DNA from: a virus
DNA length: 64,000 nucleotides
Virus record (IMG/VR): IMGVR_UViG_3300050821_007659
Location: 7,904 to 71,903 of that record
Reading direction: 5' to 3' (one strand)
Part shown: positions 22,384 to 25,008 of the stretch, one piece after another
Layout of the letters: each line of letters starts with the position of its first letter
How positions within the stretch are numbered: the first letter of the stretch is position 1
The notes under the pieces: generated by a model
Told to the model about the DNA's origin: nothing
The model's input: only the letters and a program-made list of their open reading frames with translations
Database searches by the model: none
Program-made: the position numbers and the translations under genes

Positions 22384-22524
22384 ATGTCGCTATTCACGGT
22401 GCTCCTGATCGTGTTGATCATCCTCGCGCTCGGCGGCAGCTTTGGTGGCTACTATCCGCACACGTATGGCATTGGCCTCGGCACGATTCTGCTGATTGTG
22501 TTGATCGTGCTGTTGCTGAGGTAA
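22384..22524 (+). CDS. Small two-TM protein (DUF3309-like)
   Basis: LLIVLIILALGG...GIGLGTILLIVLIVLLL; AGGAG RBS. Confidence 0.7.
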   Translation: MSLFTVLLIVLIILALGGSFGGYYPHTYGIGLGTILLIVLIVLLLR

Positions 22525-22537
22525 CGGAGGTTATCCC

Positions 22538-22717
22538 ATGAACATCGTGCCTCTGTTTCTGCAAATCGCTGCACTGGTCTGTTTCATCATGGCCTTCCTC
22601 GGGGTTGCGGCACCTAAGTCGCGACCGCTCAATTGGGAGGCGTGTGGACTGCTGCTGTGGCTCCTGTCGCTAATGATCTCGGGAATACAACTTCACCAAA
22701 CATCGGGTGTTCACTAA
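22538..22717 (+). CDS. Small two-TM protein (59 aa)
   Basis: GGAGG RBS; MNIVPLFLQIAALVCFIMAFLG...LNWEACGLLLWLLS; below the ORF-track size cutoff. Confidence 0.65.
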   Translation: MNIVPLFLQIAALVCFIMAFLGVAAPKSRPLNWEACGLLLWLLSLMISGIQLHQTSGVH

Positions 22718-22727
22718 GGAGACGTTC

Positions 22728-23841
22728 ATGTTGAATCGGTTTCGCAAACTTTTCATGCCGCTGGTGCTCGTTGCGCTCGGGCTGGTGTCGGTGATGGCTG
22801 CGCCGCCCAGTCAGGCAGCCGCTACGTCCAACTACTTCCAGAATCACATCATCGACCAGGTGTTCCGCGCGCAGACGGCACTTGCACCGGCGACGATCTA
22901 TGTGGAGCTGGCGACCTCGACTGCCACGGCACAGGCCTGCGGCACCGAGGTCAGCGGTGGAAGCTACGCACGGCAGGCGATCACGTCGAGTCTTGCCAAC
23001 TGGGCGGGCACGCAAGGCGCCGGCACAACCTCGGCATCCACTAACTCGTCGGGCTCAAGTGGTACGACGAGCAACAACGCGGCCATCACCTATCCCGCAC
23101 CAACAGCAAACTGGACGACAATTACCACCTTCTGCCTGATGGACGCGAGTTCGGGCGGCAACGAGCTGGTATACGCTGGATAATGCGGCGTCTCTCGCAG
23201 CAATGCGGGATGTTAGGAGTCAAATCTGGCATTGACGACTCCGAAGACAGTGTTGTTTTAATGTTCGCTGTCTCTAAATCGGCTCAAATCGGTGAACCCC
23301 TCCCGTGAAAGCGCGGGGAATCCCGAGGGTAAGGCTCAGAGAAAGCTGAGAATCCCGTAACGACTCAGGATTGAGATTCCTGGATGGCCCAACAAAAGAG
23401 GCCATAACACGCCGACCCTGATCATGACCAAGTGAATCGAGCGTTCTGCACTCGACACGATCAGGTGAATGTATAGTCTGGCCCGCTGGAAACAGCGCGG
23501 ATTTTCGGAACAACGGTGATGCTAGAAGTCAGAGATTCGCGATCTGACAGTGGCTCACTCAGCAGCAATGTTGAGATGATAACGGCGTGAATTGCTGGAA
23601 ACCCTAACGTAAAGTCGAGGGCAATCAGCAAGCAAGCGTGTTAGGAATAACACGAAGCTTCAGAGACTAGGACGTACGATCCAGAACGGATTATGAGGTC
23701 CCACGAGCGCGCCGCACCCCACGAGGGTGAAGATATAGTCCGATTCTCCGTTGAAAAGCGGAGTGGCCAGATAAAGAGCTGGCCTATAACATGTTGGCAC
23801 CGAGTTTTGCAGCTGGAGCCCTAACAGTCACAATTGGTTAG
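22728..23841 (+). CDS. Intron-split putative virion protein, join(22728-23177,23229-23251,23508-23523,23797-23841), 177 aa
   Basis: Joining the four exons gives a continuous frame ending GGNELVYA|ALTTPKTV|NNGDA|APSFAAGALTVTIG*. This is the C-terminus I recall for phage proteins containing TEVSGGSYARQAI. AAGGAG RBS before ATG 22728. Confidence 0.85.
23178..23228 (+). ncRNA. 51-nt core-less group I mini-intron (P1/P10 guide, P2, terminal G)
   Basis: ACGCU (23173-77) pairs with GGCGU (23187-91) with U-G at the 5' junction; UAAUGC (23181-86) pairs with 3' exon GCAUUG; P2 is UCUCGCA-GCAA-UGCGGGA; last base is G23228; contains in-frame TAA and TAG. Confidence 0.75.
23252..23507 (+). ncRNA. Group I intron (256 nt, no ORF, no P2)
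   Basis: P1 AGACAGU/GCUGUCU; P10 UGUUC/GAACA; P3 UCGGC/GCCGA; P7 A(C)GACU/AGUCU; two hairpins between P7 and P3'; P8 CCUGAUC/GAUCAGG; P9 CGCUG-GAAA-CAGCG; terminal G. Confidence 0.9.
23524..23796 (+). ncRNA. Group I intron (273 nt, no ORF)
   Basis: Canonical elements P AAUUGCUGGAA, Q AAUCAGCA, R UUCAGAGACUA, S AAGAUAUAGUCC; P2 CUCAGCA-GCAA-UGUUGAG; P3 CGGCGUG/CGCGCCG. P9.0 GA/UU favours terminal G23796 over G23793. Confidence 0.92.
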
Positions 23842-23901
23842 GGGGAATTGTTGAGTTATAATGGACGGACCCGGATCGCGCTACCAACGCAATCCGGGCC
23901 C
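23834..23901 (+). promoter_or_regulatory. Promoter and leader hairpin of the HNH gene
   Basis: TTGGTT, 17-nt spacer, TATAAT (23857-62), followed by a CCCGGAT...ATCCGGG stem. Confidence 0.55.
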
Positions 23902-23931
23902 TAACCACTACCCGCTTTCTCGGAGTGAGCA

Positions 23932-24549
23932 ATGGCTACCCATGAGACTATCACGGCGAAGATCTGTTCTCGTTGTAAACGAGATCTACCTTTGGACCAA
24001 TTCTATAAGGACGCGCGTAAGCCCAATAGAAGGGCTCATTGCAGGGATTGCTGCAACCGAGCGCGCAAAGCGGCGCGAGAAAATGCCACTCCCGAAGAGC
24101 AGAAACGCGCTCTTGAGATGGCCCGCCAGTGGAAGCTGGATAATGCGGAACGCACTGCGAAGGTAAAGCGCGCATGGGATGCTGCCAATCCAGAGAAGGC
24201 GGCCGAGTCCTCTCGAAAAGCATCCACTAAATACCGCGCCAGCAATGGTGCAGTATTTTCCGCTCGTCTTTTGCCCCATCGATTTCGACGAAGCAAGCGC
24301 AAGCGCCCGCCGAAAGCCGAATTGAAGATCGTGCCGGCGTGGGCTGATTTCGCGCAGATCGACGAAGTTTATCGGCTATGCGCAGAGCGTAATGCGTCTG
24401 ACGTAGATGGTGTTGAATGGCAGGTGGACCATATAGTTCCCTTGCAATCGAGTGCCGTGTGCGGCCTCCACGTTCAAGACAATCTTTCGATCATTCCGAA
24501 ACGTCAGAATATCGTCAAAGGCAACCGGCACTGGCCCGACATGCCCTAA
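23932..24549 (+). CDS. Free-standing HNH endonuclease
   Basis: N-terminal CSRC...CRDC Zn finger; C-terminal WQVDHIVPL...CGLHVQDNL...N..KGN. Confidence 0.88.
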   Translation: MATHETITAKICSRCKRDLPLDQFYKDARKPNRRAHCRDCCNRARKAARENATPEEQKRALEMARQWKLDNAERTAKVKRAWDAANPEKAAESSRKASTKYRASNGAVFSARLLPHRFRRSKRKRPPKAELKIVPAWADFAQIDEVYRLCAERNASDVDGVEWQVDHIVPLQSSAVCGLHVQDNLSIIPKRQNIVKGNRHWPDMP

Positions 24550-24564
24550 CCATTCGAGGTTCCC

Positions 24565-25008
24565 ATGATTTCAAAACTGACGGCGGCCCTAGTGGCCGCC
24601 GCTCTCTTTGCACTGTCCGGCTGCGGCCACTCGGATGTGAAACCCCAGCACATCCCCCCGATCTCCGCCGAATACGACGCCACCGCGCTCGCCGGTGAGG
24701 CCAAGGGCGAGGTCATCGTCATCGGCACACTCGCGACCATCGGCTCGTTCGAGTACGGCAATGCCTCGCTCGCCACGGTGGCCGCTGTCAACCTCAAGCA
24801 CATCCCGCAGCTGCTGCACGACAAGCAGATCACGACCGATGAGGCGCAGGCGAAGATCAACGCGGCCGTTCAGGTGCGTGATCTACTGAAGAAAGCGAAC
24901 GCGGTGTGCAAACAGAACGGCGCGGGTAAGTGCACGGGCAACCAGGCGCAAGCCGAGGCACTGGCCGATCAGGCGCGCAGCGTCATGGCGAAAGCCGGCT
25001 TGAACTAA
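24565..25008 (+). CDS. Lipoprotein
   Basis: Signal peptide ending in lipobox LSGC. Confidence 0.75.
   Translation: MISKLTAALVAAALFALSGCGHSDVKPQHIPPISAEYDATALAGEAKGEVIVIGTLATIGSFEYGNASLATVAAVNLKHIPQLLHDKQITTDEAQAKINAAVQVRDLLKKANAVCKQNGAGKCTGNQAQAEALADQARSVMAKAGLN

What the first reader, a model, noticed from the sequence alone, without database searches (positions are those of the whole stretch)
23178..23507. One ribozyme core may serve two introns: the mini-intron has P2 but no core, the next intron has a core but no P2
Seen in sequence: intron 23252-23507 goes from its P1 guide (GCUGUCU, 23267-73) through CUAAA straight to P3, with no P2. It still has a P8 starting CCU/AGG. Its P9.0 bases G23480-G23481 can pair with the UC before its own terminal G and also with the CU before the mini-intron's G23228; the GA of intron 3 fits CU poorly. 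The mini-intron tail GGAGUC (23216-21) can pair with exon 2 GACUCC (23237-42), which would display the 3' splice site in a loop. Established knowledge: GNRA L2 loops dock in P8 to position P1 in many group I introns. Inference: this core acts twice, first on the upstream mini-intron, whose 3' splice site lies 5' of the core, and then on itself.
Basis: inference. Interest (0 to 1): 0.88.

Follow-up and report, generated by a model that had tools for sequence, protein, structure and literature searches.

The report
Core-less intron stump beside two ribozymes
A phage fibre gene is split by a 51-base stump of a self-splicing intron that has lost its catalytic core and sits just before two complete sister introns, so one of them may have to cut it out, but no data here show that this happens.

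Summary
In a PF23140 (Gp80) gene of a 71.9-kb soil phage, homologues fix four exons: ..23177, 23229-23251, 23508-23523 and 23797-23843. Between them lie a 51-nt insert, a 256-nt intron 2 and a 273-nt intron 3.

Intron 2 has a 12-nt guide (9 of 200,000 shuffles as good), then CUAAA, then P3, so it has no P2. Its core is otherwise complete, with a CC:GG-based P8. The insert has its own 10-nt P10/P1 guide (117 of 200,000) and a GCAA-capped P2, but no core.

New here: the insert aligns colinearly with the 5' 46 nt of intron 3's guide-to-P4 segment (1 of 2000 shuffles as good). It is therefore the stump of a third, paralogous intron, deleted from inside P4.

The interpretation, that intron 2's core excises it, is untested. 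Three metatranscriptome runs gave no splice joints, and the only contig spanning the stump is unspliced. P2 is optional in group I introns. The 2-bp P9.0 fit is near chance. No stump-core base pairing exceeds chance. No related interrupted locus could be fetched.

My odds: excision by intron 2 about 0.33, by intron 3 about 0.15, no excision about 0.35. An in vitro transcript would settle it.

The parts
22728..23177 (+). Exon 1 of a PF23140 (Gp80, podophage GP4 fibre I) gene. It ends ..GGNELVYA and its last base is U, paired as U.G in P1 of the stump.
   Evidence: Pfam 106 bits covering profile positions 2-104 of 128; homologues.
23178..23228 (+). 51-nt core-less group I stump ('mini-intron'), in frame, with TAA at 23181 and TAG at 23214, and a terminal G at 23228.
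   Evidence: Homologues have no residues here. Positions 23187-23228 align colinearly to intron 3 23552-23597. It is also present in an independent Logan contig of run X7 with one change, A23215C.
23181..23191 (+). Guide of the stump. (U)AAUGC pairs with exon 2's start GCAUU(G) to form P10. GGCGU pairs with exon 1's end ACGCU to form P1, with G23187.U23177 at the cut.
   Evidence: 10 contiguous strict pairs; 117 of 200,000 shuffles as good. It is the only one of 3462 sliding 51-nt pseudo-introns with 10 or more pairs and both arms of 3 or more.
23193..23210 (+). P2 of the stump: 7-bp stem UCUCGCA/UGCGGGA capped by the GNRA loop GCAA (23200-03).
   Evidence: MFE and centroid fold. It is homologous to intron 3's P2, 23559-74, which also has a GCAA loop.
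23211..23228 (+). Tail of the stump, UGUUA-GGAGUC-AAAU-CUG. It corresponds to J2/3, the P3 5' strand, J3/4 and the first bases of the P4 5' strand of the lost intron. GGAGUC (23216-21) pairs with exon 2 GACUCC.
   Evidence: Alignment to intron 3. UCAAAUC is also identical to intron 2 at 23284-90. Helix in the MFE fold. Variant A23215C adds a C-G23243 pair.
23229..23251 (+). Exon 2, 23 nt (ALTTPKT + GU). It contains GACUCC (23237-42) and AGACAGU (23245-51, the 5' strand of intron 2's P1).
   Evidence: Homologues; fold.
23252..23507 (+). Intron 2, a 256-nt IA-like group I intron without P2. Elements: P10 guide GUUC 23263-66; P1 guide 23267-73; J1/3 CUAAA; P3 23279-83/23411-15; P4 23289-92/23323-26; P5 23297-300/23315-18 with a GAAA loop; P6 23327-29/23354-56; P6a; P7 23362-67/23474-78 with bulged C23366; P7.1; P7.2 23384-89/23400-05; P8 23417-23/23459-65; J8/7 23466-73; GG 23480-81; P9 with GAAA loop 23482-23500; omega G23507.
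   Evidence: RF00028 alignment at 23.6 bits, below the 50-bit cut-off, E 0.0013 in a 1-kb search. Guide statistics. RNA-run contigs hold its interior, and a variant has a replaced P6a hairpin and U33-A57 changed to U.G.
23508..23523 (+). Exon 3, 16 nt (G + NNGDA). GAAC 23508-11 forms P10 with intron 2.
   Evidence: Homologues.
23524..23796 (+). Intron 3, a 273-nt group I intron with P1 extension hairpin, guide GGCUCAC 23552-58, P2 23559-74 (GCAA loop), a full core and omega G23796.
   Evidence: RF00028 at 70.8 bits, above the 50-bit cut-off. Its core resembles introns in Bacillus phage DNA polymerase genes.
23797..23843 (+). Exon 4: APSFAAGALTVTIG plus stop.
   Evidence: tblastn HSP with P0011 residues 156-169. 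Homologues L085 and L086 stop at the same place.
23932..24549 (+). Free-standing endonuclease gene (HNH / endonuclease VII-like, 205 aa), flanked by the 12-nt direct repeat GCCCTAACCAYT at 23898 and 24543.
   Evidence: PHROG 1035 'endonuclease VII' at 3e-18 and PHROG 2255 'HNH endonuclease' at 1.9e-6; repeat.

Best explanation
Shown or directly readable: three paralogous IA-type group I introns entered three sites within 90 coding bases of a Gp80-family fibre gene. They came as part of a lower-GC cassette that also carries a free-standing endonuclease gene. The first intron later lost everything from inside the P4 5' strand to its 3' end. What remains is a 51-nt stump with an intact P10/P1 guide, a GCAA-capped P2, J2/3, the old P3 5' strand (now paired with exon 2) and a terminal G. 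Intron 2 is a complete ribozyme that never needed, or has lost, P2.

Inferred: the stump cannot splice itself, yet the last 24 of 128 Pfam domain positions lie in exons 2-4. A full-length protein therefore requires its removal. The most likely route has three steps. First, the stump's P1-P2 module docks as a substrate domain into a complete neighbouring core, through generic P1 recognition plus the L2 GCAA loop in the minor groove of P8. Second, that core catalyses guanosine attack at 23177/78. Third, with G23228 in its G-site and the stump's own P10 holding exon 2, it catalyses ligation at 23228/29.

Intron 2 is the best-placed helper. It lies 23 nt downstream on the same transcript, its P8 CC:GG site is not occupied by a P2 of its own, and GG 23480-81 can pair with the CU before G23228. 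It would have to act before it excises itself.
For: - Exon boundaries and in-frame restoration come from homologues.
- Guide statistics: stump 117 of 200,000 shuffles as good; intron 2, 9 of 200,000.
- The stump is the only one of 3462 pseudo-introns with two real arms.
- The four-hairpin fold has z -3.06.
- Stump 23187-23228 aligns colinearly with intron 3 23552-23597; 1 of 2000 shuffles as good.
- Intron 2's core is aligned to RF00028 with the P2 columns deleted.
- The domain is incomplete without exons 2-4: exon 1 covers profile positions 2-104 of 128.
- Against homologues, exons 2-4 differ at 10-20 codons synonymously and at only 3-9 non-synonymously.
- The gene is single-copy in the window.
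- The stump recurs with 1 change in 51 nt in a contig from another sample and study (X7). In that strain intron 2 has L1 changes. X7 and X9 contigs show a replaced P6a hairpin.
- The one stump change adds a base pair to the tail/exon 2 helix.
- No other group I core exists in the 71.9-kb genome.
- Precedents: an engineered Tetrahymena ribozyme removes a 64- or 100-nt core-less intron in trans in vitro and in E. coli (PMC4094466, abstract and section 5). The Azoarcus core works with a guide supplied in trans (PMC2709566, abstract). L2 docks in P8/P8a in Azoarcus (PMC4333387, passages).
Against: - No splice joint was seen in any of 3 RNA runs. The only contig across the stump in an RNA library (X7 record 5, 23172-23315) is unspliced. 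Contigs drop rare forms and DNA may be present in the library, so this weighs only lightly.
- Every intron-like feature of the stump is explained by ancestry alone, so none shows present function.
- P2 is optional (PMC3873408 passage).
- The P9.0 fit is 2 bp, a 1-in-4 event, and the CU is a P4 leftover.
- RNAduplex finds no stump:intron 2 pairing beyond chance; 723 of 1000 shuffles were as good.
- Intron 2's own P1 is tethered to P3 by 5 nt and should win the active site. Once intron 2 has excised itself the cis advantage is lost.
- Gp80-type head or fibre proteins may be dispensable, so a truncated product might be tolerated.
- No related locus with the stump could be fetched for covariation.
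Confidence: 0.33

Rival explanations
1. The stump is a dead scar and is never excised. Translation stops at TAA 23181 and gives a 151-aa protein lacking the last strands of the domain. The gene is decaying or its C-terminus is dispensable. Exons 2-4 look intact only because the deletion is recent.
For: The only contig spanning the stump in an RNA library is unspliced, and no joints were seen. All intron-like features are inherited from the parent intron. The two strains carrying the stump differ by few events in this stretch, so the deletion may be young. PHROG 240 calls the family a head protein, and Pfam calls it a fibre of a podophage; decoration proteins are often non-essential (recalled).
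Against: The gene is single-copy. 24 of 128 domain positions would be lost. The C-terminal segment is under strong purifying selection across the family. The stump persists in two samples from two studies, alongside an intron 2 that has diverged in a structure-preserving way.
Confidence: 0.35
2. The helper is intron 3, not intron 2. The stump's guide-P2 module is a paralogue of intron 3's own and has the same helical length from the G.U pair to the GCAA loop (12 bp plus 1 nt versus 13 bp). It therefore fits intron 3's P8 receptor and active site. After intron 2 leaves, the stump lies only 39 nt upstream of intron 3.
For: Alignment of stump to intron 3 scores 33, with 1 of 2000 shuffles as good; against intron 2, 1211 of 2000 were as good. 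Intron 3 is the stronger ribozyme match, 70.8 versus 23.6 bits. Its P8 also has CC:GG pairs.
Against: Intron 3's own P2 occupies the P8 site in cis. Its GA after P7 pairs with the stump's CU at one position only. It lies farther away in the primary transcript. No stump:intron 3 pairing exceeds chance; 318 of 1000 shuffles were as good.
Confidence: 0.15
3. The dependence runs the other way. The stump is kept because its P2 (GCAA) serves as the missing peripheral clamp for intron 2's fold by docking in P8, whether or not the stump itself is excised.
For: Intron 2 lacks P2 and has a short 4-bp P4 and a low Rfam score. L2-P8 docking stabilises the Azoarcus ribozyme (PMC4333387 passages).
Against: This gives no route to a full-length protein. 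Homologues with an intron at site 2 have no interruption at site 1 (4 of 119), although their introns begin differently. P2 is optional (PMC3873408 passage).
Confidence: 0.05
4. Ribosomes bypass the 51 nt, as in T4 gene 60, or read through both stop codons.
For: GGA followed directly by a stop (GGA UAA, 23178-83) and a gap of about 50 nt with hairpins resemble the gene 60 take-off site (recalled).
Against: No matching landing codon exists. The GGA codons at 23208 and 23216 resume in frames that do not give ALTTPKTV. Homologues leave no room for an extra Gly. Readthrough would have to pass two stops and insert 17 residues in a conserved strand.
Confidence: 0.02

Closest known systems
Phage Twort orf142: one gene with three self-splicing group I introns and exon skipping (Landthaler and Shub 1999; recalled, only papers citing it were seen in the listing)
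   Same: A phage gene carries several closely spaced, related, ORF-less IA-type introns separated by short exons.
   Different: All three Twort introns have their own cores. Here one is reduced to 51 nt with no core, and the exons are only 23 and 16 nt.
Group I 'spliceozyme', an engineered Tetrahymena ribozyme that removes an intron from a pre-mRNA in trans (PMC4094466; abstract and section 5 read)
   Same: A group I core excises a short (64- or 100-nt) intervening sequence that has no catalytic core and joins the exons, in vitro and in E. coli.
   Different: It is engineered. The guide (P1, P1 extension, P9.2) sits on the ribozyme, whereas here the guide sits on the stump and the helper would have to recognise a ready-made P1-P2. 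No natural case is known to me. Searches found none.
Bimolecular phage group I systems in which a separate P1-P2 substrate is recognised by the core through a GNRA loop and a helical receptor (Costa and Michel selection, mentioned in a passage of PMC2275092; details recalled). Also the Azoarcus core with its guide supplied in trans (PMC2709566 abstract).
   Same: This is exactly the recognition mode needed here: a P1-P2 hairpin with a GNRA L2 loop docking onto a core that does not carry it.
   Different: These are laboratory constructs. Only the first step or reverse splicing was assayed, not excision of an upstream intervening sequence.
Trans-spliced (bipartite) organellar group I introns, one of them hypothesised to use a helper RNA (passage in PMC3873408)
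   Same: Splicing relies on RNA parts that are not contiguous with the splice sites.
   Different: In those introns the two pieces together rebuild one core by base pairing. Here the stump supplies no core strand and shows no complementarity to the neighbours beyond chance.
Collaborative homing: a free-standing endonuclease next to an ORF-less intron (PMC2790892 abstract; reviews in the listing)
   Same: ORF-less introns sit beside a free-standing HNH/EndoVII-like gene. Contigs of four other interrupted Gp80 homologues hold homologues of this endonuclease, judged by matching contig lengths.
   Different: Neither cleavage nor the target site has been tested. The link to the other contigs rests on contig lengths only.

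Membership tests
Self-splicing group I intron (RF00028): the 51-nt insert | P1 formed by the 5' exon end and an internal guide, with U.G at the 5' splice site | tested here: met
   ACGCU 23173-77 pairs with GGCGU 23187-91, with U23177.G23187. Found in the MFE fold and supported by shuffle statistics.
Self-splicing group I intron (RF00028): the 51-nt insert | Terminal G (omega G), and P10 between the guide and the 3' exon | tested here: met
   G23228 is terminal. AAUGC 23182-86 pairs with GCAUU 23229-33, contiguous with P1.
Self-splicing group I intron (RF00028): the insert | Catalytic core P3-P9 with a guanosine-binding P7 | tested here: not met
   Only 51 nt. The alignment to intron 3 ends inside the P4 5' strand. 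No Rfam match starts or lies within 23178-23228.
Self-splicing group I intron (RF00028): intron 2 | Core helices P3-P9, J8/7, bulged P7, omega G | tested here: inconclusive
   All elements can be placed and the covariance model aligns end to end (model positions 1-253), but at 23.6 bits against a 50-bit cut-off. A variant strain shows structure-preserving changes.
Self-splicing group I intron (RF00028): intron 2 | P1/P10 guide matching both exons | tested here: met
   12 contiguous pairs; 9 of 200,000 shuffles as good.
Self-splicing group I intron: intron 2 | P2 (optional peripheral helix) | tested here: not met
   Only 5 nt (CUAAA) lie between the guide and P3, and the P2 columns are deleted in the CM alignment. 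P2 is optional according to a passage in PMC3873408.
Any group I intron here | Splicing activity (ligated exons, excised intron) | tested here: inconclusive
   No joints in contigs of 3 RNA runs. Raw reads were not available, so this cannot be decided.
Bipartite / helper-assisted trans-spliced group I intron | The separate pieces base-pair to rebuild one core | tested here: not met
   RNAduplex of the stump against intron 2 or intron 3 is no better than shuffles (723 and 318 of 1000 as good). The stump's P3-like strand is not complementary to either P3 3' strand.
Programmed translational bypass (T4 gene 60 type; features recalled) | Matched take-off and landing codons that restore the frame | tested here: not met
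   Take-off-like GGA UAA is present, but no GGA lies in a position that resumes as ALTTPKTV.
Collaborative-homing cassette | Free-standing homing-type endonuclease adjacent to ORF-less intron(s) | tested here: met
   ORF 23932-24549 matches PHROG endonuclease VII / HNH families. No ORF of that kind lies inside the introns. Cleavage specificity cannot be tested here.

The most novel reading that the evidence does not exclude
A natural non-autonomous group I intron. A 51-nt stump keeps only its splice-site guide, P2 and a pseudo-P3. It is excised by the catalytic core of a neighbouring sister intron, most likely the P2-less intron 2, acting in cis before its own excision. One ribozyme would then serve two substrate helices and two pairs of splice sites, as a natural 'spliceozyme'.
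Probability: 0.4. Interest if true: 0.85.

Novelty: new variant of a known kind. Interest (0 to 1): 0.62.

Why it matters
Group I introns are defined by carrying their own catalyst. A stump that survives by borrowing a neighbour's core would be the group I counterpart of non-autonomous transposons and of degenerate group II or group III introns. It would also be a small natural step towards a shared, trans-acting splicing machine.

It would show that tandem paralogous introns buffer one another against core loss. And it offers a compact natural design, about 330 nt, for ribozymes that remove foreign intervening sequences.

If the stump is not excised, the locus is still a clean example of how an intron dies in a phage gene. 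It also shows that automated calls of this Gp80 gene stop 27 residues too early.

Tried and rejected
Related DNA
The contigs of the interrupted homologues could therefore not be read: P0002 and P0004 (site 1), and P0007, P0012, P0020 and P0035 (site 2).
- 173 homologous loci were fetched: 80 of 108 viral, 80 of 91 metagenomic and 13 genomic. None shows the window's split pattern.
- L063 is cut by its locus end. L160 looked short but reads through. L151 has an unexplained in-frame stop that I did not resolve; Rfam found nothing there.
- Exact-pattern scans of viral contigs gave 0 hits for the stump, 0 hits for intron 2's core and 2 chance hits in AT-rich coding DNA.
- blastn of 23170-23530 against GenBank phages gave no match at E up to 1.
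- blastn of 23170-23800 against 401 genomes of the order of G001 gave only 4 chance-size matches of 20-23 nt.
- nhmmer of the stump, intron 2 and intron 3 against 245 loci found nothing.
- 70 loci with endonuclease homologues were fetched. Rfam found no family above cut-off in the first 40 of them. The other 30 were not scanned.
- A 41-aa ORF across the stump has no protein homologue in the 22-72 aa range.

RNA
- One look-up of runs and one laying of 3 RNA runs plus 1 DNA run were made. The parts 23147-23171 and 23523-24700 have no RNA cover. Nothing follows from that.
- The start of X2's intron 2 contig at 23267, the first base of the guide, tempted me to read it as a processed 5' end. Contigs cannot show ends, so I rejected that reading.

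Ideas dropped
- The tail AGUC as a relic of the P7 3' strand. The colinear alignment to P3/J3/4/P4 of intron 3 is better.
- The stump as the missing 5' part of intron 2. Both carry their own P3-J3/4-P4 5' strands.
- Strand exchange with a neighbour's P3 or P4. The strands are not complementary.
- Translational bypass. There is no landing codon.

Literature
Searches found no natural core-less group I intron.
Full report
WHAT THE REGION IS. The window is most of a 71,903-base virus record rated 100% complete. It comes from a soil metagenome, and a 48-kb Logan contig of DNA run X1, the possible source, matches 22500-24700 without a difference. The ORF 22728-23183 follows the terminase large subunit gene and belongs to Pfam PF23140, 'Podophage GP4 fiber I protein gp80'. 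It covers only profile positions 2-104 of 128.

Among 1891 protein homologues (120 listed), the full-length ones continue ..ELIYA[A/P]LTTPKTVNNGDAAPSFAAGALTITIG... The missing residues are all present downstream in the window, in three pieces:
- 23229-23251 (ALTTPKT plus two bases of V);
- 23508-23523 (NNGDA);
- 23797-23843 (APSFAAGALTVTIG, then stop).
Two homologues stop at the same place.

The gene is therefore interrupted three times: by 51 nt (23178-23228), 256 nt (23252-23507) and 273 nt (23524-23796). Rfam finds a group I intron above cut-off in the third (70.8 bits). It gives a full-length but sub-threshold alignment in the second (23.6 bits, E 0.0013 in a 1-kb search). A free-standing HNH/endonuclease VII-like gene follows at 23932-24549.

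CHECK OF THE OBSERVATION.
- Intron 2's guide (U)GUUC|GCUGUCU, 23262-73, pairs without a break with the first bases of exon 3 (P10) and the last seven of exon 2 (P1, with U23251.G23267). Only 9 of 200,000 shuffles do as well.
- Five bases later (CUAAA) P3 begins (23279-83 with 23411-15). There is no space for a P2, and the covariance-model alignment deletes the P2 columns.
- The rest of the core can be placed: P4, P5 with a GAAA loop, P6/P6a, a P7 with a bulged C, P7.1/P7.2 (an IA-type trait), and P8 beginning C-G, C-G, U-A. After these come J8/7, GG 23480-81, P9 with a GAAA loop and G23507.
- The 2-bp pairings claimed for GG (with UC before G23507 and with CU before G23228) exist. However, one random dinucleotide in four would pair with GG.
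- GGAGUC 23216-21 pairs with GACUCC 23237-42. This helix is part of the minimum-energy and centroid folds of 23170-23275. That stretch forms four successive hairpins with z = -3.06, and 0 of 200 shuffles fold as well.
- A 6-bp helix between the tail and exon 2 arises in 720 of 20,000 shuffles.

WHAT THE 51-NT INSERT IS. It has a bona fide group I guide. AAUGC (23182-86) pairs with the first five bases of exon 2. Immediately next to it, GGCGU (23187-91) pairs with the last five bases of exon 1, with the canonical G.U at the cut. With strict pairing this is matched in 117 of 200,000 shuffles. Among 3462 sliding 51-nt 'pseudo-introns' in the window it is the only one with 10 or more pairs in two real arms. 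One base further on lies a 7-bp hairpin capped by GCAA.

The new finding is that 23187-23228 aligns colinearly with intron 3's 23552-23597: guide, P2 (also GCAA-capped), J2/3, P3 5' strand, J3/4 and the first bases of the P4 5' strand. The score is 33, and 1 of 2000 shuffles does as well. Against intron 2 the best local match is at chance (1211 of 2000). The heptamer UCAAAUC of the tail is nevertheless identical to intron 2's P3-J3/4-P4 junction at 23284-90.

The insert is therefore the 5' stump of a third intron, paralogous to both neighbours, whose core was deleted from inside P4 to the 3' splice site. UGG microhomology at both ends would fit such a deletion; this is my inference. Three consequences follow:
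- The CU before G23228 is a leftover of P4, not an evolved P9.0 partner.
- GGAGUC is the old P3 5' strand, and exon 2 happens to supply a complement, forming a pseudo-P3.
- The stump's P1-P2 module has nearly the same helical length from the G.U pair to the loop as intron 3's (12 bp plus one base versus 13 bp, read).

IS IT EXCISED, AND BY WHAT? The stump has no core, so it cannot splice itself. The whole genome holds no group I core other than introns 2 and 3.

Arguments that it must be removed are indirect:
- The gene is single-copy.
- 24 of 128 domain positions lie beyond it.
- Against homologues the C-terminal segment shows 10-20 synonymous but only 3-9 non-synonymous codon differences.
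- The stump recurs in a contig of run X7, from another sample and study, with one change in 51 nt (A23215C, which adds a C-G23243 pair to the tail/exon 2 helix). That same contig carries changes in intron 2's L1.
- Contigs of X7 and X9 show an intron 2 with a replaced P6a hairpin, and a U-A to U.G change inside the P8 extension. These structure-preserving differences argue that intron 2 is a working ribozyme.

Against excision, no splice joint was seen in the contigs of three metatranscriptome runs. The one contig that spans the stump is unspliced. Contigs drop rare forms and RNA libraries contain DNA, so this weighs little either way.

No base pairing between the stump and either neighbour exceeds chance. 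Any help must therefore come from tertiary docking: generic P1 recognition plus the GCAA loop in a helical receptor. Both P8 helices contain CC:GG pairs, so the receptor does not discriminate between the two cores.

For intron 2: it is the nearest core, its P8 site is free, and the GG/CU fit exists. Against intron 2: its own P1 is tethered by 5 nt and should win the active site, and after self-excision it is no longer in cis. For intron 3: it is the stump's closest paralogue and the stronger ribozyme match.

P2 is an optional element (passage in PMC3873408). Four of 119 homologues (P0007, P0012, P0020, P0035) stop at the intron-2 site with an uninterrupted site 1. 'No P2' is therefore not evidence of dependence.

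Biochemical plausibility is good:
- An engineered Tetrahymena ribozyme removes 64- and 100-nt core-less introns in trans, in vitro and in E. coli (PMC4094466, abstract and section 5).
- The Azoarcus core works with a guide supplied in trans (PMC2709566, abstract).
- L2 docks in P8/P8a in Azoarcus (PMC4333387, passages).
- GNRA-helix contacts were used to select ribozyme-substrate recognition in a group I system (passage in PMC2275092).

I put excision by intron 2 at about 0.33, by intron 3 at about 0.15, and no excision at about 0.35. The remainder goes to minor rivals (P2 lent to intron 2 without excision; bypass) and to the unknown.

ORIGIN OF THE CASSETTE. GC at third codon positions falls from 0.75 in exon 1 (150 codons) to 0.37 in exons 2-4 (27 codons; Fisher p = 2e-4). 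The introns and the endonuclease gene have 51-54% GC against 61% for the window. This is thin evidence, but it fits a shared cassette in different exon 1 backgrounds.

The contigs of four other interrupted homologues also hold homologues of the endonuclease at 38-50% identity: P0007, P0020 and P0012 at site 2, and P0004 at site 1. The contig of P0002 (87% identical in exon 1, same ...VYAG stop) does not appear among the 120 listed. This fits homing of ORF-less introns with a free-standing nuclease (collaborative homing; PMC2790892 abstract). It may also explain why three introns crowd into 90 coding bases.

COMPARISON AND NOVELTY. The closest natural relative is the three-intron orf142 of phage Twort (recalled), where every intron keeps its core. 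The closest functional analogue is the engineered spliceozyme. Bipartite organellar group I introns differ because their pieces rebuild one core by pairing.

My seven literature searches found no natural core-less group I intron served by another intron's core. Supplements were closed.

The anatomy is a new variant of a known kind. The shared-core mechanism is an attractive, cheaply testable hypothesis, not a result.

Noticed in passing
window 23170-24549: A lower-GC cassette. GC3 is 0.75 in exon 1 and 0.37 in exons 2-4 (Fisher p 2e-4). The introns and the endonuclease gene have 51-54% GC against 61% for the window. This suggests acquisition by homing with co-conversion starting about 8 nt before the stump.
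   Followed up: partly
window 23898-23909 and 24543-24554: A 12-nt direct repeat, GCCCTAACCAYT, brackets the endonuclease ORF. Expected by chance 0.23; 2 of 100 shuffles reached 2 matches. A third, shorter copy (GCCCTAAC) lies in exon 4. These may be insertion or recombination scars of the nuclease gene.
   Followed up: partly
proteins P0122, P0123, P0128, P0185 against P0007, P0020, P0012, P0004: Homologues of the endonuclease (38-50% identity) sit on contigs of exactly the same lengths (25669, 37744, 16284, 83747) as four other Gp80 homologues whose ORFs stop at intron site 1 or 2. Interrupted Gp80 genes and this nuclease family therefore seem to travel together.
   Followed up: partly
window 23316-23351 and 23425-23457 (runs X7, X9): A strain variant of intron 2 in soil metatranscriptome contigs has a different P6a hairpin (loose end GGGUAAGACCAAACGAAAGUUUGGG). 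It also has three changes in the P8 internal loop and one U-A to U.G change. Several further contigs share only the 35-nt segment 23354-23388 (P6 3' strand to P7.1), so this intron type seems common in soil.
   Followed up: partly
window 22728-22830: The Gp80-family protein and its closest homologues begin with a signal-peptide-like segment (..LVALGLVSVMAAPPSQA|AATSNY..), which is unusual for a virion fibre or head protein (judged by eye only).
   Followed up: no
window 23866-23939: A hairpin in the leader of the endonuclease gene gives a sub-threshold match to the R1162-like plasmid antisense RNA family (29.5 bits against a 55-bit cut-off). This is probably only a shared hairpin shape.
   Followed up: no
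locus L151 (metagenome contig): A Gp80 homologue whose match spans 627 nt for 148 residues and shows an in-frame stop in the tblastn alignment. Rfam finds no RNA family there. It was not resolved.
   Followed up: partly
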